IMG/VR virus record: IMGVR_UViG_2974644367_000001
Location: 10,237-74,236 of that record
Strand: one strand, 5' to 3'
Source: a virus
Lineage: Duplodnaviria > Heunggongvirae > Uroviricota > Caudoviricetes
DNA length: 64,000 nucleotides
This document shows, piece after piece, positions 6,612 to 27,928 of the stretch. A program made the translations under genes and the position numbers. Numbering within the stretch: the first letter of the stretch is position 1; every line of letters starts with the position of its first letter. A model generated the notes under the pieces. It worked only from the letters and a program-made list of their open reading frames with translations. It had not been told where the DNA came from and did no database searches.

Positions 6612-7096
6612 TGGTAAAACGTGTTATCGGTGAGGGGCGAAACGTCCTAATGAAAGCCGTCAAAAACATTGCAAAGTCAACTGTAAAGGTTGGCTTTTTT
6701 GCTGAACAAGGTAAGCACTACTCAGGTTTCTCTTATCCTGCGTTAATGTATCTTCATGAAGTAAACGGTATTCCAGCAGCCAACGGTAAAGTCTACCGCA
6801 GGGCGTTTGAAACCGCTATGCAGATTGACAGAAAACTTTTGATAGCGCAAGCTCAGAAGAATCTAAAACGTATGCTCTCAACAGGGCAGACAAACCCCGA
6901 CCTCGTACTTTCCCAATTCGGACAAGGCACTATCAAGTCCCTTAAAAAGGTCTTTGGTAATCCAAGCCTGTTACCACCGAACACACCTTCAACTATTAAA
7001 TCGAAGGGTGGAAGAAATACGCCTCTGGTTGATACATCTGACCTCGTTGATAAACTGGCGTACAAGACTTCTAATCGTGGAGGATTGAGGAAATGA
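6611..7096 (+). CDS. Head-tail joining protein (putative)
   Basis: Overlapping TAATG start in the structural operon. Confidence 0.35.
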   Translation: MVKRVIGEGRNVLMKAVKNIAKSTVKVGFFAEQGKHYSGFSYPALMYLHEVNGIPAANGKVYRRAFETAMQIDRKLLIAQAQKNLKRMLSTGQTNPDLVLSQFGQGTIKSLKKVFGNPSLLPPNTPSTIKSKGGRNTPLVDTSDLVDKLAYKTSNRGGLRK

Positions 7097-18495: not shown

Positions 18496-18849
18496 ATGGC
18501 AAGACCTAATGATGCAGTGGTCTCATGGGCTACAGCAGACGTTGATAATGAAGGTTCACAGCTTAAAGTTGCACCACCATCTGAGATTCAGGCAAGTGGT
18601 CTTTTAAGAGGTGAGCCGATGGGTAGACAGTGGTTTAACTACGTGTTGAACAACCTGTCACAGTATGTCAAGTATCTTGATGAGTCTGTAAACCCTGCAA
18701 AAGGTGCTTCTACCGCAACACACGAAATCCGTATGAGCGCAGTGCAGCGTACTGATTGGGTTGCAAGAGGTTGGAATTTGATTAAAACAGTAACTGATTC
18801 AACAACCTCAACAGGTTCTATCTATTACTATGAACATACTGGAGCGTAA
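18496..18849 (+). CDS. Small tail fibre-associated protein
   Basis: A 117 aa ORF in the fibre cluster. Confidence 0.3.
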
Positions 18850-18852
18850 TGA

Positions 18853-19926
18853 ATGGCTGAAAGTAACATTCAGATTAACGCCTTGCCACAAGCAACGACA
18901 CCATTATCTGATGCTGACATTTTCCACTGTAAGCAAGGTATCGTTGATAAGCGTGTCTCATTAGCTGACTTACTGTTCCCTCACACAAGCCTGACCAATA
19001 ACCCACACAATGTGACAAAGGCTCAGGTTGGTTTGGGCAATGTAACGAATGATGAACAGCTTGTCAAGGCTCAGAACTTGGGTGATATTCCTAACGTGGA
19101 GATTGCTCAGAGTAACCTTAACGTTTATTCTAAAGAGGCTGTAGATGCTGTTGTCCAGACCCACATCAATAACAAGAACAACCCGCACAACACAACCAAA
19201 GCCCAAGTCGGTTTGGGAAACGTTGAGAACTACACGGTTGCCCTTTCGTACACTGATGCGTCAGCCAACAAGTATGTTACAGCGAAAGTTGTAAACGACC
19301 TGTACAAAATGATTCAGGGTATGTACCCGATTGGTCACAGAATCTATACTGATAACGCTACCAACCCATCTAACTACATCCCTGTTGGTACTTGGGCTTT
19401 AGCTGGGCAGGGGCGTGTGTCAGTTGGTTATGACCCTGCCGTGTCTTCTCGTCCTGCGGGAACGAAGTATGGTTCATCATCTGTGACAATTGATGTAGCT
19501 AACTTGCCAGCACACAGCCACGCAGTTACTGTATCAGGTGCTAACCACAGTCACGGTGCGTCTGGTTCAACAACTGGTGCGGGTGCTCACAACCACGTTG
19601 CTTCTGGTAACACTGGTTACGCCGGAGACCACAACCACACCTACACGACAACTCGTCAGGGTGGGGGGAGTCCCGGAAACCACGTTGGACATGGTTCTAA
19701 TGAAATCCACTACACCAACGAGGCTACAGGTGTCGCGGGTGGACACACCCACTATGTCTCATTGGCAACTAACACTGTTGGCGACCATGCTCACGGATTG
19801 AACATCAACATCAACGCATCAGGCAACCTGTCAATGTCTGGTACAACAAACCCTACAGGTTCTGGTCAGGCTCTGACTATCGAACAGCCCTCAGAAGTTG
19901 TTTACATCTGGAAAAGGGTTTCTTAA
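18853..19926 (+). CDS. Tail fibre protein with a tandem NNPHNxTKAQVGLGNV repeat and a C-terminal HxH-rich tip
   Basis: The motif NNPHNVTKAQVGLGNVTN is followed by a second copy, NNPHNTTKAQVGLGNVEN, as in the phage tail-fibre repeat. The C-terminal third carries at least six H-x-H triplets, HSH, HNH, HNH, HTH, HAH and others, as at the gp37 and gp12 tips. Confidence 0.65.
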   Translation: MAESNIQINALPQATTPLSDADIFHCKQGIVDKRVSLADLLFPHTSLTNNPHNVTKAQVGLGNVTNDEQLVKAQNLGDIPNVEIAQSNLNVYSKEAVDAVVQTHINNKNNPHNTTKAQVGLGNVENYTVALSYTDASANKYVTAKVVNDLYKMIQGMYPIGHRIYTDNATNPSNYIPVGTWALAGQGRVSVGYDPAVSSRPAGTKYGSSSVTIDVANLPAHSHAVTVSGANHSHGASGSTTGAGAHNHVASGNTGYAGDHNHTYTTTRQGGGSPGNHVGHGSNEIHYTNEATGVAGGHTHYVSLATNTVGDHAHGLNININASGNLSMSGTTNPTGSGQALTIEQPSEVVYIWKRVS

Positions 19927-19930
19927 CATA

Positions 19931-19955
19931 GGGACTCTTCGGAGTCCTTTTTATT
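19931..19955 (+). terminator. Intrinsic terminator (GGACTC-UUCG-GAGTCC followed by T5)
   Basis: A perfect 6 bp stem, a UUCG tetraloop and a T-tract. Confidence 0.7.
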
Positions 19956-20012
19956 TGCATTTTTAAGATTGCGTGAGATAATTATTTATTGACCATGCAA
20001 GAGGATTATAAA

Positions 20013-21521
20013 ATGGCAACTTATAGACTTCAAGACTTGCCGGAATTCACAGGAACTATTTTAGGTACTGACCTTGTTCTTGTTAAGATTCTGGCGAGAG
20101 ATAGCACAGGCACTGATACTGATGCTAAAATGACAGTCACCAATTTCTTGAAAGGTGTCAGCTTCGATACGTCCAAGTTCCTGTTGAAAGGTGGAGACAT
20201 CTTCGCTGGTGATATGACGATGAACAACACCGTATCACTCAAAGGTCTGATGACAGGCTCTAAAGGGGCTGTAGGAATCGCTGTAGTCAATTCTAACGAC
20301 CAGTTGGTTGTAGGTGATGATAAGCTGCCACTTATTCTGAAGTCCCTTGAGAACCCCGCATATTTGCGTACAGACGGTACTCAGTTTTACCTGTACCATA
20401 CAGGGAATAAACCTTCTGCAACAGATATTGGTGCTGTCCCTACAACAAGAACTGTAAACGGTCATGCACTGAATACTAACGTGACTCTGGCAGCTTCTGA
20501 ACTTTCTGGTATTGACCTGTACATGCTCAAAGCAGACGGCTATACAAAAGTTTCTGGAGTTATGCAGGAACCATTGACTGTTAAGAACAACTCTTACTTG
20601 TCTGCACAGAAAGCTGATGGCTCTGCAAACGTTGGACTGATTAAGCTGAATGGTAGTAATAACCTTGAGATTGGTCAGACAGATACTTTCATGATTCTGT
20701 ACAGTAACAGTGACATTCAGGCTCAAATCAAAGGCTACAATCAGACCCTTCTCCACGATGGTAACTTCAGAACTTACATTAACCCTAATGAAAAGCTGAA
20801 AGCCTATGTGACCATGCAGGTGTTTGACACTGCGGGAACTTATACCATCACACCAGATGATTTATCAACAATGTTGAAATTCCGTGTGGAAGGTGAGAAT
20901 AAGTATGACTTCGAGGTTTCACTGTCAGCAATTACTGGTCACTACCAGACTGCGGCTGTTGCAAACACTTCAAGCTACGGTAATATCGTCGTTAGTGAAG
21001 CGCAAGAGTCAAATATTCTGGATGACAGGACAGGTAACGTTGTTAAGGCTGTTATTGCAGATGACGATGCAGGGTTCATTATTGGTTTCTGGAATGAGAC
21101 ATCTAAGAAGTCAGCGTTCAATTCAATTGCTTACCGTGCAGATGGTGACTTTAACGCAAGGATTGAAGATGCTGATGGTTGGTTGTGGTGGTGGATGCTG
21201 GACAACACGAACGGTACATGGGTGAACAAAACTATCACGCCAAGTGAAGGTACTTTGTCAGGCTACCAGCCAAACCATGAGAGTTCTGAAACCAGACCAA
21301 CTGCACCGAACTTAACAGGTGGTGTCTCTCAGGTCAACATCCTGTTTGACAGCAGTTCATCAACCAACTTGACATTCTCTTATTACTGTGTAAACACCCT
21401 TCCACCGAAGGATGCTACAAAGATTGAAGTCGTTGTTGGTGCATCTGGTTCAGTGTCTGCAAACAGTAATGTTACCGGACGTGTTGACCGTATCGTTGTA
21501 GAAGAGTTCGCAAGAATCTAA
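20013..21521 (+). CDS. Tail fibre protein (N-terminal anchor shared with the 21533 gene; C-terminal domain shared with the 22267 gene)
   Basis: It starts at MATYRLQDLPEFTG with a GAGGA ribosome-binding site. See the findings for the shared domains. Confidence 0.6.
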   Translation: MATYRLQDLPEFTGTILGTDLVLVKILARDSTGTDTDAKMTVTNFLKGVSFDTSKFLLKGGDIFAGDMTMNNTVSLKGLMTGSKGAVGIAVVNSNDQLVVGDDKLPLILKSLENPAYLRTDGTQFYLYHTGNKPSATDIGAVPTTRTVNGHALNTNVTLAASELSGIDLYMLKADGYTKVSGVMQEPLTVKNNSYLSAQKADGSANVGLIKLNGSNNLEIGQTDTFMILYSNSDIQAQIKGYNQTLLHDGNFRTYINPNEKLKAYVTMQVFDTAGTYTITPDDLSTMLKFRVEGENKYDFEVSLSAITGHYQTAAVANTSSYGNIVVSEAQESNILDDRTGNVVKAVIADDDAGFIIGFWNETSKKSAFNSIAYRADGDFNARIEDADGWLWWWMLDNTNGTWVNKTITPSEGTLSGYQPNHESSETRPTAPNLTGGVSQVNILFDSSSSTNLTFSYYCVNTLPPKDATKIEVVVGASGSVSANSNVTGRVDRIVVEEFARI

Positions 21522-21532
21522 GGAAAACTAAA

Positions 21533-22267
21533 ATGGCTACTACAAGTTACAGAATTCAAGACTTGAAGCAGTATACTGGCTCATTGTCAACTTCTGATTT
21601 CTTGTTAGTCAAGATTAAGAAGCGTACAGGTATGATTGGGGATGAGGATATGAAAATCTCCATGAACCTGTTCCTTGACCAACTGGCACAAGGGTTCTTC
21701 CCGATTACTGGTGGGGTTCTTAAAGGGAACCTCACTATTGCAAATGGTTATCTTCTTTCTCTTGCTGATAAGAATGATGTTGCAGTTTCTGTTGGTGGCT
21801 TCACCGCTGATAACAGACTTCAACTCGGTAACATCAACCGTGGATTGACTCTGGTGACAATCTCTGATGTCCAGATTAAACGTGGTGCTAACAGCTATGA
21901 AGTTTATCATGCTGGCAACCTCCCAAATGTTACCAAGATTGACAGTTATTACAATGCTGGATTTGTTGGGACAAGCCACTCAATCAACATGGGTCAGTAC
22001 ACTGATTACCAGATGACTTTACAGAATCCTACAACTGCGTTAGACTTCTCTTCAGGCTTTGTTAAAAGGGCTGTTGAGACAATCACAATGTTGATTACTC
22101 AGGGTTCTGGTTCAAACAAGGTCACTTGGCCTAGTAACATCAAATGGGCTAACGGATATGCACCCACCCTTTCATATAAGGCTGGTAAGACCGACATTAT
22201 CACATTCATCTCTTACGATTTGGGTGAGTCATGGTTAGGTCTGATGACAGCCGCTGGAGTAAGTTAA
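21533..22267 (+). CDS. Short tail fibre paralogue
   Basis: The N-terminus MATTSYRIQDLKQYTGSLSTSDFLLVKIKK is paralogous to the 20013 gene. Confidence 0.55.
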   Translation: MATTSYRIQDLKQYTGSLSTSDFLLVKIKKRTGMIGDEDMKISMNLFLDQLAQGFFPITGGVLKGNLTIANGYLLSLADKNDVAVSVGGFTADNRLQLGNINRGLTLVTISDVQIKRGANSYEVYHAGNLPNVTKIDSYYNAGFVGTSHSINMGQYTDYQMTLQNPTTALDFSSGFVKRAVETITMLITQGSGSNKVTWPSNIKWANGYAPTLSYKAGKTDIITFISYDLGESWLGLMTAAGVS

Positions 22268-25200
22268 TGACGCAAGTTAAACAGACGGCAGCACAGAGTG
22301 CTGTCAATCAAGCTGTGAATTTGCTGAACGGTCATGAAGATTTTGTAGAGCGTAGTACGGGTCTCACTGTAGACCCACATACTGACCACTACCTGCAAAA
22401 CCCTGATTTCGTTCTGTCAAACAACAGACATTTCATTGCAGACACTATGGCAGAATATCAGCCCAATGGTGACGCAACCACTGAGGGTCAGGCATTACAT
22501 GTCCTCGGTTACTGCCACGCATATATCGCAACAAAGAATCCTGTATTCCTTGACAAAGCGAAAAAGGCTTGGGATGCCTATATCAATTATTTCTACAAGG
22601 GTCAACCTGTACCAGATTTTCCATCTCGTTACATTTGTAACTGGATTATTAACGGTAAAGAGCCTGTCCTTGCGGATTATCCAGTAAACCCCGAAGAACC
22701 TACTCAGGGTGGCTATAAGTGTGTCCCTATCCAGTTCACTAACGGTGTTGGTCAGATTCCTCATGGTGCTCCTTTTTGGGGTGAATATCTCGACTCTTGT
22801 ACATTTGCTCACCGTGGTCACATGACATGGGATGCGATTAACGGCTCTGTTCAGGAGATTCAAGAGAACCTTGACGGGAAGATTGATTGGCAAACTGTTT
22901 TCGACCAGTACAGAATCCTTGGGACTCCAACCTATTCAGATTTGTTCTTAGACAACTTCACAGATGGACGTAATACTTGGACAGGCTTTACAAGCACGTC
23001 AGTTATCCCGACCGTTACAGGTGGTTGGATTAAACCTCCACGTGTTGATGACACAAACCCTGTTGGTATTCGTAAAGACGGTCTCTCTTTTGCAGGTGGA
23101 GATTATGAAACAGTTCGTCTGAGAGTTAAGAAGACGGGTTCTCCTGTTTGGGCTGGTGCTGTATGGTGGGTTCCTACTGATGGCAGAGGTTGGGATGTAA
23201 CCCGCAAGTTCTCTATCCCTGAGCCTAAGTTTGACTCATCCGGTGTTGCTGAGATTGCTGTGACTACTGGTTGGAACGTCAACATCCGTACAATGCGTAT
23301 TGACACTGGCGCACCATTGACTGCTGAAGAGTATGAGAAGAACTTCTTCGAGATTGACTACATCGGTGTAAGTCACAAAACTGGTGAAGGTATCGCAGAA
23401 CCTTGGTCATCTCTTGCGTGGATTGATTGGAAAGCGTATCTTGGTGACACTTACACTGTTAAATGGGGTGAGTCAAATCGAGCAAAAACCCTTCCAGTTC
23501 AATGGCTTGTCGTATGGACAAACAATAAAATTGGTATGGGGAAAGGCCCGAATGACCAGTTATGGGATGGTGACATTATCGAAGAAAATCTTCCAGACTC
23601 TGATAAAGGGATGATTAAACTCGAAGATGAGACTATCAACGGTGTATACTTAGTGAATTATGCTTCTAAAGTTCCTGTTGATTTTGGTGGGTATGAGTTC
23701 AAGAGAAATGAACCGTGGCATAACCGACCTGTACATACACCGTTCTTGGGTGGTATCAACCAGTTAGGTAACGCTGCTGATGCTGAAGTCTGGTTTGTAG
23801 ATGCTTGTTATCTTCTGTACAGAATTACTGGTGATGAGAAGTACAAGACTGCTTTAGAGAGTGTATTCTTCACTGCGAACGAATATACTGAGATTGACTC
23901 AACGGATAAATTCTTCCGTCAAAGTATGTCTGCTGAAACTCCATTTACGGATGCAATCAGCTACGGGTTCTCTTACCCTGCAAGTACGACTATCAACTAC
24001 AGTCGTGACTCTGAAGGTTACATTGTAATCAACACTGACCAAGCCTGTCAGACCTTCTTAGAGCAGCAAGCGGTTATCTTCCGTGTTACTGACAAGTCTA
24101 AGTTGAGATTGACTTATGGTGGTCAGACAGAAACTGGAAAGACTGTTGGCATGTCTGGAATCCTGACAATCGGCTCAACGAAAGGTGACACAGACTCTGA
24201 AAACAGGTACAAGGTAACTCTTCCAAAGACGAGTGATTCTACTCCAAAAGTCTATGACATTCCTCTTAGTCAGCTTGCGAAAGAGACTAATGATGAAACT
24301 GGTGAAGATTATCTGGTAGCCGACTCAAGAGCAGCAACCGACTATGGAAACTGTACTTGGGAAGAAGTCTACGAAGAAAATGTTTTCGATGGCCGTTCAG
24401 CAAACATCATCAAGGCAAAACTCCCAACATCTGATGACGGTTTCATTATCGGATTCTGGTTGACAGAAGAAGGTAAAGCTGACACAAAGTCTATCGTCTA
24501 CCGTGCTGATTCACCAATCACTGTACGCATGACTGATGACAATGAGTGGAACTGGAACTGGATTCTTGGCGAGACTTATGGTAAGTGGGTGAAGAGAACC
24601 CTTGACCCGAAAAACCTTACACTTGCTGAGAGACAGCCTAACCACACAGCAGAAGAGCCTTTACCAACTGAGGTTAAATATACCAAAGTTGAACAGTTGA
24701 ACTTCTCTCTGGAGGATGATACAGCAACTGACAAGGAATTCTCTTACTACTGCATCAACGATGTTCCACCACTGTTTGAAGGTGATGACGGTTGGACAGT
24801 TCTGTTCCGTGCGGCATTGAATGGTAGTGAAGCGTTTACGGCTGTTGTTGGTGATTGTACAATCATTGACTATCGTCACGACTCACTGGCGTACAGTCCC
24901 GGCGTTATTCCGTTCTCTAACATTTATGGTGAAGGTACGAACCAGATTGGTGCTTGGCACGGTATGCCATACCCAGGCTATCAATACCCGTTCATCTACA
25001 CAATTCATGTTTCAGAAAAATATGCAAATGAGCTTTCAAATCAGATTCAGTTCCTGTATGATAGCCAAGAAGCATATTACAATCAGGTCGGAATTTTGGG
25101 GCCAGGCTGTGCTGCATATATCTGGAACCGTTGGGATAACTACAAATATGGTAAGCCTGACACTTGGACAACGTATCATTGGGGTGACGGCAAGCCTTGG

Positions 25201-25740
25201 TCTGGTTATCAGCCAAGAGCCTATAACGCTGCTGCAAGGGCTTGGTATGAGCTTTCTGTAAGAGGGAAGACTGTTCCGAGAATCCTGAAAGAATACGTTG
25301 AACGTTGGTCAACATGGCTTGTATCATTTGCAGAAAGGTTTGATGGTCATTCACCAAATGACTTCCCAATTGCACCAGACCAACCAGTTTGGATTGAGAA
25401 CGACTTCACAGGTCACATGTGCGGCCTTTGGTTAGCAGGTGCTTGTTACTCTAAACTTGCAGGTTCAAAAGTGGAAGGTCTCGACTACTTCATTGATTCC
25501 TGTGCAGGTGAGTTGGCAGAGAACTTTACAATCGTTGATGACCCTACAAAGGCTATTAACGGTGCATGGTCTCCAGACCCAAGAGTATCAGGTGATAATG
25601 GCATGTCTTTTGGATTTTATACTGGTGAAATTTTCCGTGGATTATCACTGTACATTATCTATAAGAATCATGGTGTTGGTTACAACTTCTACCAAGATTG
25701 TGCCATTACAGACCACTACAAAGCGTCTATTGACGTTTAG
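22267..25740 (+). CDS. Large tail-associated protein, a putative tailspike with an enzymatic domain (start at MTQVKQ, 1157 aa)
   Basis: The ATG at 22267 overlaps the preceding stop, and GGAG lies upstream. A central domain is shared with the tail fibre at 20013. The termini are rich in Trp and Tyr. Confidence 0.5.
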   Translation: MTQVKQTAAQSAVNQAVNLLNGHEDFVERSTGLTVDPHTDHYLQNPDFVLSNNRHFIADTMAEYQPNGDATTEGQALHVLGYCHAYIATKNPVFLDKAKKAWDAYINYFYKGQPVPDFPSRYICNWIINGKEPVLADYPVNPEEPTQGGYKCVPIQFTNGVGQIPHGAPFWGEYLDSCTFAHRGHMTWDAINGSVQEIQENLDGKIDWQTVFDQYRILGTPTYSDLFLDNFTDGRNTWTGFTSTSVIPTVTGGWIKPPRVDDTNPVGIRKDGLSFAGGDYETVRLRVKKTGSPVWAGAVWWVPTDGRGWDVTRKFSIPEPKFDSSGVAEIAVTTGWNVNIRTMRIDTGAPLTAEEYEKNFFEIDYIGVSHKTGEGIAEPWSSLAWIDWKAYLGDTYTVKWGESNRAKTLPVQWLVVWTNNKIGMGKGPNDQLWDGDIIEENLPDSDKGMIKLEDETINGVYLVNYASKVPVDFGGYEFKRNEPWHNRPVHTPFLGGINQLGNAADAEVWFVDACYLLYRITGDEKYKTALESVFFTANEYTEIDSTDKFFRQSMSAETPFTDAISYGFSYPASTTINYSRDSEGYIVINTDQACQTFLEQQAVIFRVTDKSKLRLTYGGQTETGKTVGMSGILTIGSTKGDTDSENRYKVTLPKTSDSTPKVYDIPLSQLAKETNDETGEDYLVADSRAATDYGNCTWEEVYEENVFDGRSANIIKAKLPTSDDGFIIGFWLTEEGKADTKSIVYRADSPITVRMTDDNEWNWNWILGETYGKWVKRTLDPKNLTLAERQPNHTAEEPLPTEVKYTKVEQLNFSLEDDTATDKEFSYYCINDVPPLFEGDDGWTVLFRAALNGSEAFTAVVGDCTIIDYRHDSLAYSPGVIPFSNIYGEGTNQIGAWHGMPYPGYQYPFIYTIHVSEKYANELSNQIQFLYDSQEAYYNQVGILGPGCAAYIWNRWDNYKYGKPDTWTTYHWGDGKPWSGYQPRAYNAAARAWYELSVRGKTVPRILKEYVERWSTWLVSFAERFDGHSPNDFPIAPDQPVWIENDFTGHMCGLWLAGACYSKLAGSKVEGLDYFIDSCAGELAENFTIVDDPTKAINGAWSPDPRVSGDNGMSFGFYTGEIFRGLSLYIIYKNHGVGYNFYQDCAITDHYKASIDV

Positions 25741-25788: not shown

Positions 25789-25826
25789 AGCCCACTGAGA
25801 GTTTTCTTAGTGGGTTTTTTGTTATA
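25789..25826 (+). terminator. Intrinsic terminator after the tail fibre operon
   Basis: CCCACT..AGTGGG stem followed by TTTTTTG. Confidence 0.5.
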
Positions 25827-26435: not shown

Positions 26436-27371
26436 TTAACCAACAGAAAGAGGGGCTTTCACTACTCCAGCGTTTTGATAACCCTGAAGAGCATTTTTAA
26501 AGGTATTACCATTCAAGGCTAACACCTTATCCAGAGAACTCAAATCCAAGTTATTCAGATTCAAGGTAGGGGCTTCAAACTCTGGATTATCCAGAACCTG
26601 CATAACAGCCGGAACATGGTTCTCATAAATATGAGCGTCACCGAAAGTTCCAATCACATAACGAGGTGTGTAGCCTGTCATTTGTGCCAGAATACGAAGC
26701 AGGAGCGCGTATGAGGCGATATTGAACGGCAACCCTAAGAATGTATCAACAGAACGCTGATACCAGCGTAAGTCCATATAGCCACCCTCAGAGGCATACA
26801 CTTGGAAGAACATATGGCAAGGTGGTAATGCCCCAAGGTTATTCGCAACAGCTACAGGGTTCCATGCTGATACAATGTGATAACGACTCGCAGGATTCTC
26901 ACGAATACCAGTGATTAAACGTTCAATCTGGTCACAGGTCATCTCACAAGATTCAAACTCACGCCACTGACTACCATAAATCATACCCAAATCTTCTTGA
27001 GCTTTGATTTTGGCAACAGTCTTATCCAGCAAATCACCAGTCTGAACTTTACGAACCATCTTCAGGACTGACTCAAGATAACGTTCATAGTCAGCAGTCC
27101 AGATTGTGTTCTGACCTTCATCAGAACCGAACTGATACATTCTCAGAGAGTGTAAGTCAGTCTTACCAGCCAAGAACCAAAGTAACTCACCTGCAACCAG
27201 TGACATAGGGACGGACTTACAGGTCAGTAATGGGAACTCTTTGCGAATGTCGATACGCAGGTCTTCTGGAAAAGGAACACTGATAGTGTTACCTGAACGA
27301 GATTTTCTCAGTTCGCCATTAGACAGAATGTTTGCCATGAAACCTTTATATTGTTGGTCGATAGTGCTCAT
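26436..27371 (-). CDS. thyA: Thymidylate synthase
   Basis: LPPCHMFFQVY active-site motif. The whole sequence aligns to ThyA. Confidence 0.9.
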   Translation of the reverse strand: MSTIDQQYKGFMANILSNGELRKSRSGNTISVPFPEDLRIDIRKEFPLLTCKSVPMSLVAGELLWFLAGKTDLHSLRMYQFGSDEGQNTIWTADYERYLESVLKMVRKVQTGDLLDKTVAKIKAQEDLGMIYGSQWREFESCEMTCDQIERLITGIRENPASRYHIVSAWNPVAVANNLGALPPCHMFFQVYASEGGYMDLRWYQRSVDTFLGLPFNIASYALLLRILAQMTGYTPRYVIGTFGDAHIYENHVPAVMQVLDNPEFEAPTLNLNNLDLSSLDKVLALNGNTFKNALQGYQNAGVVKAPLSVG

Positions 27372-27928
27372 AGTAATCCCTCAATGTAGTGGAAAGTTTT
27401 GCCAGTGCTATTTCTCAGCCTTTCAAAATACGCAAGCTGTAGATGGATAGGCACTTCGAAGTCCACCATTATATCAGCCTGTTCATTGCTGTCAAGGACA
27501 GTCAGGTAGAGTTGGTCAGTTAGTGGTAAAGCCTCTGCAATGATACTTGAGCCACCGATTACAGCTACGTTACCGAAGAACTTCTCTGCGAGTTTGATAG
27601 CTGTTGTGGTCTCATGGCAGATGAAATGAACCTCTTTACCATCAACCTTATAAGACACAACCTCACCGAATTCGAGTTTAGTACCACACGGTAACTCACT
27701 CGTCAGGATGATAGCGTTACGTTCTGGAAGTGGTAAATGGATGTCAAGCTGATTTTCTTTTCTTGCAACCAGAGACTTGTAAGTTGACTTACCCATCAGG
27801 ACGGAACCGATGTTCTTTGTAATCTCTGAGAAACGCATCAGGTCTTCAGAGTTCTTAGGCCACGGAAGGGAACCGTCATAGTTCCCAAACGCACCTACGC
27901 TGTTTATAGCATAGACTGTAGCAATCAT
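27368..27928 (-). CDS. frd: Dihydrofolate reductase
   Basis: The N-terminal IxAxxxNxxIG pattern, and the LPW and VLMGKSTYKSL motifs. Confidence 0.8.
   Translation of the reverse strand: MIATVYAINSVGAFGNYDGSLPWPKNSEDLMRFSEITKNIGSVLMGKSTYKSLVARKENQLDIHLPLPERNAIILTSELPCGTKLEFGEVVSYKVDGKEVHFICHETTTAIKLAEKFFGNVAVIGGSSIIAEALPLTDQLYLTVLDSNEQADIMVDFEVPIHLQLAYFERLRNSTGKTFHYIEGLL

What the first reader, a model, noticed from the sequence alone, without database searches (positions are those of the whole stretch)
18853..25740. Tail fibre cluster built by domain shuffling
The genes 20013 and 21533 share a 35 aa N-terminal anchor. The first reads MATYRLQDLPEFTGTILGTDLVLVKI. The second reads MATTSYRIQDLKQYTGSLSTSDFLLVKIKK.

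The C-terminal 130 aa of the 20013 product reappear as an internal domain of the 1157 aa protein at 22267. In the 20013 protein the block reads AGFIIGFWNETSKK...WLWWWMLDNTNGTWVNKTITP...GYQPNHE...FSYYCVNTLPP. In the 22267 protein it reads DGFIIGFWLTEEGKAD...WNWNWILGETYGKWVKRTLDP...ERQPNHT...FSYYCINDVPP.

The 1157 aa protein lacks the anchor. So either it attaches through this shared domain, or the domain is a receptor-binding or carbohydrate-binding module swapped between fibres.
Basis: seen in the sequence. Interest (0 to 1): 0.55.

Follow-up and report, generated by a model that had tools for sequence, protein, structure and literature searches.

The report
Modular phage tail fibres with enzyme adaptor
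In Erwinia phage M7 three neighbouring tail genes really do share swapped modules. The large protein without an anchor has the fold of a sugar-cutting enzyme and most likely rides on the small neighbouring adaptor protein, a two-gene cassette reused by many unrelated phages.

Summary
The window is Erwinia amylovora phage vB_EamM-M7 (Kolesnikvirus, Ounavirinae). Both similarities are real. gp040 and gp041 share about 150 N-terminal residues (29% identity, E 3e-13). gp040 residues 311-465 match gp042 residues 682-835 (40% identity, E 1e-33).

The shared anchor is the Felix-O1-type fibre N-terminus. gp038 is the fibre platform known from phage Bas63.

The missing anchor of gp042 is best explained by gp041. 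Its C-terminal ~100 aa domain precedes every gp042-family gene I inspected (12 of 12, in about ten phage lineages), always with overlapping stop and start codons. Its N-terminus is a lineage-specific anchor, for example the T7 gp17 N-domain in phiR8-01.

Docking through the shared domain is not supported. Carbohydrate binding by that domain is plausible but untested. M7 is reported to depend on cellulose, which makes gp042 a candidate glucanase.

This is ordinary fibre mosaicism plus a moderately novel adaptor-enzyme cassette.

The parts
18496..18849 (+). gp038, the long-tail-fibre platform protein (T4 gp9-like docking trimer)
   Evidence: phmmer against PDB finds 9ndy_S, 'LTF platform protein (gp025)' of phage Bas63, at E 1.4e-28. 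PHROG 4141 also matches.
18853..19926 (+). gp039, a short-tail-fibre-like protein: N-terminal anchor motif, Gp10_C-like collar, and His-x-His repeats in the C-terminal part
   Evidence: Pfam Gp10_C at E 2.2e-14 and PHROG 2097 tail fibre at E 4e-83. PDB hits to T4 gp10. N-terminal motif alignment. 39% identical to P778 ORF061.
19930..19949 (+). Terminator-like hairpin followed by a promoter-like site (19954-19982) and an AAGAGGA ribosome-binding site. It separates gp039 from the gp040-gp042 unit.
   Evidence: phiEa21-4 carries an annotated terminator at the same place.
20013..21521 (+). gp040, a chimeric fibre: Felix-O1-type anchor, two shaft modules, and a distal beta domain borrowed from the gp042 family
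   Evidence: Full-length relatives were found only in Kolesnikvirus.
20013..20459 (+). gp040 aa 1-149: shared N-terminal anchor plus the first shaft module
   Evidence: 29% identity to gp041 1-152, E 3e-13. 31-35% identity to fibre N-termini of P778, Hafnia phage SarahDanielle and Mooglevirus. The phiEa21-4 annotation reads 'similar to Felix O1 tail fiber NP_944923'.
20532..20768 (+). gp040 aa 174-252: second copy of the shaft module
   Evidence: Matches gp041 52-130, E 6e-5.
20943..21407 (+). [quoted passage not shown]
   Evidence: E 1e-33 against gp042. All 18 family positions that are at least 90% conserved are retained. It contains one of gp040's two most divergent stretches between M7 and phiEa21-4 (aa 401-450, 74%; the shaft, aa 151-250, is equally divergent).
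21533..22267 (+). gp041, the proposed adaptor: same anchor, one shaft module, and a C-terminal docking domain
   Evidence: 97% conserved between M7 and phiEa21-4.
21947..22264 (+). gp041 aa 139-244: conserved C-terminal all-beta domain, the 'socket' of the cassette
   Evidence: pLDDT about 95. 4231 cluster representatives at E<=1e-3. C-terminal in 139 of the 150 best. Directly precedes gp042-family genes in 12 of 12 loci.
22267..25740 (+). gp042, a tail-associated protein with the fold of an (alpha/alpha)6-barrel glycoside hydrolase and inserted beta domains
22267..22917 (+). gp042 aa 1-217: the most conserved part of the family (N-terminal helix plus the first barrel hairpins); proposed contact with the adaptor
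   Evidence: 49-69% identity across nearly all cassette pairs, against 38-60% for the C-terminal part (Vibrio D504 pairs are lower on both). Invariant N45, N52, N53, R54, H55, D69, E73, Q75.
22918..23397 (+). gp042 aa 218-377: insertion, mostly beta strands in the model, found only in the closest relatives (P0001-P0003)
   Evidence: Coverage map. Lower model confidence. PHROG 2589 match at 271-372.
24310..24771 (+). gp042 aa 682-835: the shared all-beta domain, native to the family
   Evidence: Homologues align continuously across it. Strands 690-867 have pLDDT above 90. The 751-800 window is 74% identical between M7 and phiEa21-4, the lowest full 50-aa window in gp042.
25789..25816 (+). Terminator-like hairpin that closes the gp040-gp042 unit

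Best explanation
The cluster encodes the side appendages of a Felix-O1-like baseplate, assembled from interchangeable modules.

Components:
- gp038 is the fibre platform.
- gp039 is a short fibre.
- gp040 and gp041 carry the same N-terminal baseplate-binding anchor, so two different appendages can be mounted on one kind of site.
- gp040 is a plain fibre. Its distal ~200 aa is a beta domain copied from the gp042 enzyme family.
- gp041 is a short adaptor. Its C-terminal ~100 aa domain acts as a socket for the conserved N-terminus of gp042. The two genes are translationally coupled by overlapping stop and start codons.
- gp042 has the fold of an (alpha/alpha)6-barrel glycoside hydrolase with accessory beta domains.

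Inferred function: gp040 binds a surface polysaccharide reversibly through the borrowed domain. gp041-gp042 binds the same or a related polymer through the same domain and cleaves it, bringing the baseplate to the outer membrane. Bacterial cellulose is a candidate substrate, because M7 is reported to need it.

Shown here: the homologies, the enzyme fold, the conservation of the cassette and the variety of anchors.

Inferred only: physical docking of gp042 on gp041, catalytic activity, substrate, and glycan binding by the shared domain.
For: Identity and homologies. The window is phage M7 at 100% identity. Pairwise E-values are 3e-13 and 1e-33. gp038 matches the Bas63 LTF platform at E 1.4e-28. 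The Bas63 cryo-EM paper shows that both STF and LTF attach through N-terminal baseplate-binding domains (PMC12609058).

Cassette. Every gp042-family gene inspected is directly preceded by a gene that ends in the gp041 C-domain. In 9 of the 9 junctions checked the stop and start overlap by 1-8 nt. The loci are M7, Rosemountvirus zoltan, Phapecoctavirus ESCO5, Pienvirus phiR8-01, Brenneria, a Pseudomonas P2-like prophage, Spongiibacter, metagenomic locus L010, Vibrio phage D504, Schitoviridae phage Philippe, the Erwinia jumbo phage Asesino and Cronobacter phage GAP52. The tblastn host distributions of the two modules mirror each other.

Anchors. The adaptor N-termini are unrelated and lineage-specific. 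In the podovirus phiR8-01, g043 is Phage_T7_tail (E 5.6e-9) followed by the adaptor domain, and no other fibre gene lies in the late-gene stretch examined, so g044 can only be mounted through it. In P0095 a P2 gpI baseplate domain is fused directly to the enzyme's N-terminus.

Fold of the adaptor domain. The gp041 C-domain model (pLDDT ~95) gives its best structural hits to anchor or branching parts of phage fibres: CBA120 TSP4 N-terminus, gp9, gp10, gp34 and the Solidus tailspike.

Divergence. gp041 is 97% conserved between M7 and phiEa21-4, whereas gp040 (85%) and gp042 (89%) are the most divergent virion proteins in the stretch compared. The minima include the centre of the shared domain in both proteins.

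Literature. M7 requires cellulose (PMC13101476). phiEa21-4 particles alter host LPS and amylovoran glycan profiles (PMC12540986). A family member is a virion protein by mass spectrometry in phage S144 (PMC7432712).
Against: The adaptor domain is much broader than this partnership. It has 4231 cluster representatives and tandem copies in 30 of the best 150. At least one protein ending in it (P0192, locus L008) is not followed by a gp042-like gene. It may therefore be a general terminal domain.

There is no co-divergence signal between adaptor C-domains and partner N-termini (Mantel r -0.01, p 0.56).

No GH family can be assigned by sequence: Pfam and PDB profile searches were empty, and there is no similarity to the S6 GH48 enzyme.

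The cellulose link is indirect. The pgm mutant, which makes less cellulose, still supports M7. The phiEa21-4 study names LPS and OmpA as receptors.

The fold of the shared domain could not be searched on its own.
Confidence: 0.6

Rival explanations
1. One reading: gp042 is held on the virion through the shared beta domain. For example, it docks on or co-assembles with the tip of gp040, so the domain is an attachment module.
For: The domain is the only similarity between gp042 and an anchored protein. Its 18 signature residues are all kept in gp040, as expected for a conserved interface.
Against: The same domain sits inside gp042-family proteins of phages that have no gp040-like protein: zoltan, ESCO5, phiR8-01, GAP52, Philippe, Asesino and prophages. 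Full-length gp040 relatives exist only in Kolesnikvirus. The domain centre is the most variable stretch between sister phages, which is unusual for an assembly interface. gp040's domain is closer to foreign family members (50-53%) than to gp042 (39.5%). The adjacent, translationally coupled adaptor explains attachment more simply.
Confidence: 0.08
2. gp041 is an independent short fibre, and its C-terminal domain is itself a receptor-binding head. gp042 reaches the virion by another route, for example its N-terminal helix inserting directly into the baseplate. In this reading the gene adjacency reflects co-regulation only.
For: The domain lies at the extreme C-terminus of 139 of 150 diverse proteins, where receptor-binding heads usually sit. 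It is often tandemly repeated. It occurs without a downstream gp042-like gene in L008. There is no co-divergence signal. P0095 shows that the enzyme can be fused directly to a baseplate domain.
Against: Adjacency holds in 12 of 12 loci, with overlapping stop and start in all 9 junctions checked, across about ten lineages with unrelated anchors. In phiR8-01 no other attachment route for g044 is visible. gp041 is the best conserved of the three proteins between sister phages, which is unlike a receptor-binding tip. The structural neighbours are anchor and branching regions, not receptor heads.
Confidence: 0.2
3. The shared domain is a structural spacer or folding unit with no ligand. gp040's resemblance to gp042 is a relic of illegitimate recombination with no functional meaning. 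gp042 is a non-catalytic structural protein that has kept only an enzyme-like fold.
Confidence: 0.12

Closest known systems
Bas63 / Felix O1 (Felixounavirus) fibre network: LTF platform gp25, STF gp26, LTF gp27 (PMC12609058; PDB 9ndy)
   Same: Same subfamily and the same gene order: wedge proteins, platform, short fibre, then long-fibre position. gp038 is a clear platform homologue (E 1.4e-28). gp039 has the Gp10_C collar and His-x-His repeats. The fibres start with an N-terminal baseplate-binding region.
   Different: The single long fibre with a His-x-His needle tip is replaced in M7 by three genes: a chimeric fibre with a borrowed beta domain, and an adaptor plus an (alpha/alpha)6 enzyme-like protein. 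Two proteins carry the LTF-type anchor instead of one. How they share the platform sites is unknown.
Branched tailspike systems with T4 gp10-like docking domains: phage G7C gp66/gp63.1 and CBA120 TSP2/TSP4 (PDB 7rej, 7rfv). The roles of these proteins are from my own knowledge.
   Same: An anchored protein carries a small beta domain onto which a second, enzymatic receptor-binding protein that lacks its own virion anchor is mounted. The gp041 model's best structural hits include the CBA120 TSP4 N-terminal region, gp9 and gp10.
SP6 / K1-5 gp37-type adaptor of T7-like phages: gp17 N-domain plus an adaptor for tailspikes (from my own knowledge)
   Same: In phiR8-01, g043 combines the Phage_T7_tail N-domain with the adaptor domain and is followed by the enzyme gene. 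The logic is the same: a tail-binding N-domain plus a socket.
   Different: The socket domain is different, and a single passenger of a different fold is carried.
Virion-associated cellulases of Erwinia phage S6: gp094 (GH48-like) and gp095 (GH5, experimentally active) (PMC9544554)
   Different: There is no detectable sequence similarity between gp042 and S6 gp094 (BLASTP E 1.3; hhalign probability 0.4%). Activity of gp042 is untested.
(alpha/alpha)6-barrel glycoside hydrolases GH8, GH76, GH105, GH88 and GH48
   Same: Overall barrel fold, with about 320 residues superposed at 2.8-3.3 A.
   Different: Only 7-15% identity. The barrel is split by about 800 residues of inserted beta domains. No family signature was found.

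Membership tests
[quoted passage not shown] | The platform protein that receives the long fibre is present | tested here: met
   gp038 against PDB 9ndy_S, LTF platform gp025, E 1.4e-28.
[quoted passage not shown] | N-terminus homologous to Felix-O1-group fibre N-termini | tested here: met
   gp040 1-149 matches fibre N-termini of P778 (two genes), Hafnia phage SarahDanielle and Mooglevirus at 30-35% identity. phiEa21-4 gp70 and gp71 are both annotated as similar to the Felix O1 fibre NP_944923. There is no direct sequence hit to solved Bas63 fibre chains; the paper itself reports that the domain is conserved in structure but not in sequence.
[quoted passage not shown] | T4 gp37-like receptor-binding tip with a His-x-His needle | tested here: not met
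   gp040, gp041 and gp042 have no His-x-His repeats and no Pfam or PDB match to such tips. Only gp039 has them.
(alpha/alpha)6-barrel glycoside hydrolases (GH8-like and relatives) | (alpha/alpha)6 barrel fold | tested here: met
(alpha/alpha)6-barrel glycoside hydrolases (GH8-like and relatives) | Sequence membership of a defined GH family or signature | tested here: not met
   No Pfam hit at E<=0.01 for the whole protein, or at E<=10 for the accessory beta-domain segments. The PDB profile search was empty. Only insignificant hairpin matches to GH76 and epimerases, E 0.02-1.4.
(alpha/alpha)6-barrel glycoside hydrolases (GH8-like and relatives) | Catalytic acid/base residues in the cleft, and hydrolytic activity | not testable with these tools
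   Invariant D69, E73, D505, D544 and E1121 exist.
Adaptor-mounted (branched) receptor-binding protein systems (G7C, CBA120, SP6 type) | The passenger protein lacks a virion anchor of its own, and an adjacent anchored protein carries a dedicated docking domain | tested here: met
   gp042-family proteins start at the conserved enzyme N-terminus. The upstream gene has a lineage-specific anchor plus the conserved C-domain in 12 of 12 loci.
Adaptor-mounted (branched) receptor-binding protein systems (G7C, CBA120, SP6 type) | The docking domain has the T4 gp10-like / XD fold | tested here: inconclusive
Adaptor-mounted (branched) receptor-binding protein systems (G7C, CBA120, SP6 type) | Physical complex between adaptor and passenger on the virion | not testable with these tools
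   Only single-chain prediction was available, and no experiment was possible.
Carbohydrate-binding modules (reading of the shared domain) | Match to a known CBM family, or a demonstrated beta-sandwich lectin fold | tested here: not met
   No Pfam family for gp040 299-502 or gp042 670-880, even at E<=10. The domain is all-beta in the model, but it could not be searched separately from the barrel.
Carbohydrate-binding modules (reading of the shared domain) | Binds polysaccharide | not testable with these tools
   Needs a binding assay with the isolated domain.

The most novel reading that the evidence does not exclude
The gp041 C-domain and the gp042-family N-terminus form a universal plug-and-socket. 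This lets one uncharacterised family of (alpha/alpha)6 glycanases hop between the baseplates and tails of at least ten unrelated phage lineages (myo-, podo- and jumbo phages, and prophages) simply by swapping the adaptor's N-terminal anchor. In Kolesnikvirus the enzyme is a new-family glucanase acting on bacterial cellulose. Its substrate-binding domain has been transplanted onto a plain fibre (gp040), so that binding and cutting of the same polymer are split between two appendages mounted on the same anchor.
Probability: 0.25. Interest if true: 0.62.

Novelty: new variant of a known kind. Interest (0 to 1): 0.45.

Why it matters
Mosaic tail fibres are routine in phage genomes, so the bare observation is ordinary. 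The work adds three things.

1. It gives a concrete, testable answer to how the anchor-less 1157 aa protein is mounted. The small neighbouring gene is a portable adaptor, and the adaptor-enzyme pair is a cassette found from T7-like podoviruses to jumbo phages. I found no Pfam family, no solved structure and no functional study of the family for either partner.

2. It names a candidate for the glycan-degrading activity of Kolesnikvirus particles. These phages (phiEa21-4 and M7) are used in fire-blight biocontrol. It also suggests a link to the reported cellulose dependence of M7.

3. It marks gp040 as the only observed case where the enzyme's accessory domain became a fibre tip. That offers a natural experiment on how binding modules are recruited. 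It also offers a design rule for retargeting phages: change the adaptor N-terminus and keep the socket.

Tried and rejected
- Sequence searches of gp040, gp041 and gp042 against PDB gave no meaningful hits. A profile of 93 homologues also found nothing.
- Pfam found nothing for the three proteins or for the accessory domains and the gp040 N-terminal part, even at E<=10.
- Homology of gp042 to the S6 GH48-like gp094 is rejected (BLASTP E 1.3; hhalign probability 0.4%).
- I recalled a GH8-like 'SEGQ' acid motif that resembles the family's invariant 'TTEGQ' (residues 71-75). A search with residues 40-115 returned only insignificant GH76 and epimerase hairpin matches, so I do not use it.
- Co-divergence of adaptor C-domains with partner N-termini gave no signal (Mantel r -0.01, p 0.56, nine cassettes). 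This neither supports nor excludes contact.
- I looked for a Rosetta-stone fusion of the adaptor domain to the enzyme and found none among the 150 best representatives. Only a direct Tail_P2_I-enzyme fusion exists (P0095).
- The P0092 N-terminus against the Brenneria adaptor N-terminus is not significant (E 1.0).
- P0123, an apparent second architecture for the shared domain, looks like a chimeric or misassembled gp042-family fragment.
- A recent intragenomic duplication as the origin of gp040's domain is rejected. gp042 ranks 54th of 93 in similarity to it.
- The word-indexed homologue searches for gp040 and gp041 returned few hits (19 and 8). Family sizes therefore rest on tblastn and the exhaustive phmmer run.

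Full report
**Source and gene map.** The region is 100% identical to Erwinia phage vB_EamM-M7 (NC_041978; Kolesnikvirus, Ounavirinae). About 36 relatives carry the same four genes. The gene map is: gp038 18496-18849, gp039 18853-19926, gp040 20013-21521 (502 aa), gp041 21533-22267 (244 aa) and gp042 22267-25740 (1157 aa). A terminator-like hairpin at 19930-19949, a promoter-like site and a good ribosome-binding site precede gp040. Another hairpin at 25789-25816 follows gp042. gp040, gp041 and gp042 therefore look like one transcription unit. phiEa21-4 has an annotated terminator at the first position.

**Checking the observation.** BLASTP aligns gp040 1-149 with gp041 1-152 at 29% identity, E 3e-13. 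A second stretch, gp040 174-252, matches gp041 52-130 at E 6e-5, so gp040 has two copies of a shaft module and gp041 has one. gp040 311-465 aligns with gp042 682-835 at 40% identity, E 1e-33. gp041 and gp042 are unrelated. Both similarities are far beyond chance. The anchor is about 150 aa rather than 35. gp039 shares the first ~45-residue motif weakly.

**What the anchor is.**
- gp038 matches the 'LTF platform protein gp025' of Bas63 (PDB 9ndy_S, E 1.4e-28).
- In Bas63 the short and long fibres both attach through N-terminal baseplate-binding domains. The short fibre binds wedge protein 2 and the long fibre binds the platform (PMC12609058).
- gp039 has the Gp10_C collar and His-x-His repeats of the short fibre.
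- The gp040/gp041 N-terminus matches fibre N-termini in other Ounavirinae-like phages: P778, Hafnia phage SarahDanielle and Mooglevirus.
- In phiEa21-4 both orthologues are annotated as similar to the Felix O1 fibre.
- Yersinia phage P778 likewise has a platform, a short fibre and two anchor-bearing fibres, but with different distal parts.

The anchor is therefore a lineage-wide module under which distal parts are exchanged.

**The shared domain.** It is native to this family, and gp040 acquired it.
- gp040 keeps all 18 positions that are at least 90% conserved between gp042 682 and 834 (Y, A, R, G, Y, D, W, W, W, T, W, L, Q, P, P, Y, N, P). Similarity ends at about residue 838.
- gp040's copy is 39.5% identical to gp042's, which ranks 54th of 93. 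It is 50-53% identical to copies in Salmonella prophages and other members, and 51% identical to the copy in the Erwinia jumbo phage Asesino. It is therefore not a recent duplication within this genome.
- Some family members have the domain in tandem.
- Between M7 and phiEa21-4 the structural proteins are 94-97% identical. gp040 is 85% and gp042 is 89%. The least conserved 50-residue windows include the centre of the shared domain in both proteins (74%). gp040's shaft (aa 151-250) and gp042's insertion (aa 301-350) are about as divergent.

Together with its distal position in gp040, this fits a ligand-binding module. However, there is no match to a known carbohydrate-binding family, and its fold could not be searched on its own.

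**How gp042 is attached.** The C-terminal ~100 residues of gp041 form a confident all-beta domain (pLDDT ~95).
- *Distribution.* In the phage collection, the host distribution of records matching gp041 mirrors that of records matching the shared domain: Escherichia 240 and 242, Salmonella 99 and 100, Erwinia 33 and 33, Campylobacter-labelled 23 and 23.
- *Adjacency.* In every locus where I looked at a gp042-family gene, the gene immediately upstream ends in this domain. Stop and start codons overlap by 1-8 nt in all nine junctions checked. The twelve loci are M7, Rosemountvirus zoltan, Phapecoctavirus ESCO5, Pienvirus phiR8-01, a Brenneria locus, a Pseudomonas P2-like prophage, a Spongiibacter prophage, a metagenomic contig, Vibrio phage D504, the N4-like phage Philippe, jumbo phage Asesino and Cronobacter phage GAP52.
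- *Anchors.* The N-terminal parts of these small proteins are mutually unrelated. Across domain-bearing proteins generally they include Phage_T7_tail, Tail_spike_N, T4_gp9_10_N, collagen and Collar.
- *The clearest case.* In phiR8-01, g043 is the T7 gp17 tail-binding N-domain (E 5.6e-9) followed by the adaptor domain. g044 is the enzyme, and no other fibre gene is annotated in the late-gene stretch examined.
- *A direct fusion.* In one homologue (P0095) the P2 gpI baseplate domain is fused directly to the enzyme's N-terminus. This shows that the N-terminus is the attachment end.
- *Structural neighbours.* The best hits of the gp041 model are anchor or branching regions of phage fibres (CBA120 TSP4 N-terminus, gp9, gp10, gp34, Solidus tailspike), but at modest scores.
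- *Conservation.* gp041 is 97% conserved between the two Kolesnikvirus species, as expected of a connector.

**Caveats on the adaptor model.** The domain is far more widespread than the gp042 partnership. It has 4231 cluster representatives. It is C-terminal in 139 of the best 150 and tandem in 30 of them. Starting from the adaptor side, 5 of 7 informative loci have a gp042-family gene next. One clear case (L008) and one weak case (J2-1) do not. Pairwise divergence of adaptors and partners is uncorrelated. No interaction was modelled or measured. The domain may be a general terminal socket with several kinds of partner, or a binding head that happens to travel with the enzyme.

**Function in infection (inferred).** A recent study of this very phage states that M7, like S6, requires bacterial cellulose. 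It also notes possible dependence on LPS, and that the low-cellulose pgm mutant still supports M7 (PMC13101476). S6 carries GH48-like and GH5 cellulases (PMC9544554), and gp042 is not related to them by sequence. phiEa21-4 particles change the glycan profile of host LPS preparations and release amylovoran-derived sugars. That study names LPS and OmpA as receptors (PMC12540986). A family member is a virion protein in phage S144 and was left unexplained there (PMC7432712). gp042 is thus the obvious candidate for a particle-borne glycanase. Cellulose is one candidate substrate, at roughly one chance in four.

**Comparison with known systems.** The arrangement works like the branched receptor-binding systems of G7C, CBA120 and SP6/K1-5, in which an anchored protein carries a docking domain for an enzyme that has no anchor. 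It differs in three ways: the docking domain is not assignable to those families, the adaptor is a dedicated small protein, and the passenger is an (alpha/alpha)6 barrel rather than a beta-helix tailspike. Relative to Bas63 and Felix O1, the single long fibre is replaced by two differently equipped appendages on the same anchor. How they share the platform sites is open.

**Verdict.** 'Domain shuffling' is right, but it is ordinary for phage fibres. Attachment through the shared domain is not supported. Attachment through gp041 is the best-supported mechanism (about 0.6). The adaptor-enzyme cassette is a moderately novel variant of a known kind.

Noticed in passing
L005 7225-10997 (Brenneria sp. 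4F2 contig JAKMAJ010000009): An adaptor plus gp042-family pair sits among housekeeping genes (cysS, folD, PTS IIA), with no other phage gene within 8 kb upstream or the ~1 kb of contig that remains downstream. It may be a stranded or domesticated cassette.
   Followed up: no
window 22918-23397 (gp042 aa 218-377): An insertion of about 160 aa, mostly beta strands in the model, is present only in Kolesnikvirus and two or three close relatives. Model confidence is lower, and it has a weak PHROG 2589 match to a giant tail protein. Residues 301-350 are among the most variable between M7 and phiEa21-4 (76%).
   Followed up: partly
P0036, P0047, P0049, P0053; L015 4685-7936 (Stenotrophomonas phage Philippe gene 091): Some gp042-family members carry the shared domain twice in tandem.
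   Followed up: partly
P0095 and P0092 (homologues of gp042): P0095 has a complete Tail_P2_I baseplate domain fused to the enzyme's N-terminus. P0092 has an extra ~84 aa N-terminus and a C-terminal 'GP4 fiber-tail adaptor gp77' domain (PF23148).
   Followed up: partly
window 27368-27928 (dihydrofolate reductase, minus strand): This protein is only 72% identical to its phiEa21-4 orthologue, whereas its neighbours are 88-98% identical. It is the most divergent protein in the 30 kb compared.
   Followed up: no
window 22231-22266: The gp042 reading frame opens at an upstream ATG (22231), 12 codons before the annotated start. The homologues and the stop/start overlap with gp041 favour 22267.
   Followed up: partly
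L012 6761-7001 (Yersinia phage P778 ORF063): The annotated start overlaps ORF062 by about 200 nt. Similarity to the gp040 anchor begins at 7001, so the true start is probably there.
   Followed up: no
phage collection hits: About 23 records named 'Campylobacter phage' (MG0656xx) and one 'Listeria phage LPML1' carry Vequintavirus-like or Ounavirinae-like fibre genes typical of enterobacterial phages. The host labels look doubtful.
   Followed up: no
window 1-64000: ARAGORN finds no tRNA gene in the 64 kb window. I recall, without checking, that Felix-O1-like phages usually carry a tRNA cluster; if so, it lies outside this window.
   Followed up: no
L003 5085-5210 (ESCO5 gp238) and window 18853-18975 (gp039): The adaptor of the unrelated Phapecoctavirus ESCO5 begins with an N-terminal motif similar to that of gp039 (40% over 41 aa, E 0.002). 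This hints that this short anchor motif is shared beyond Ounavirinae.
   Followed up: partly
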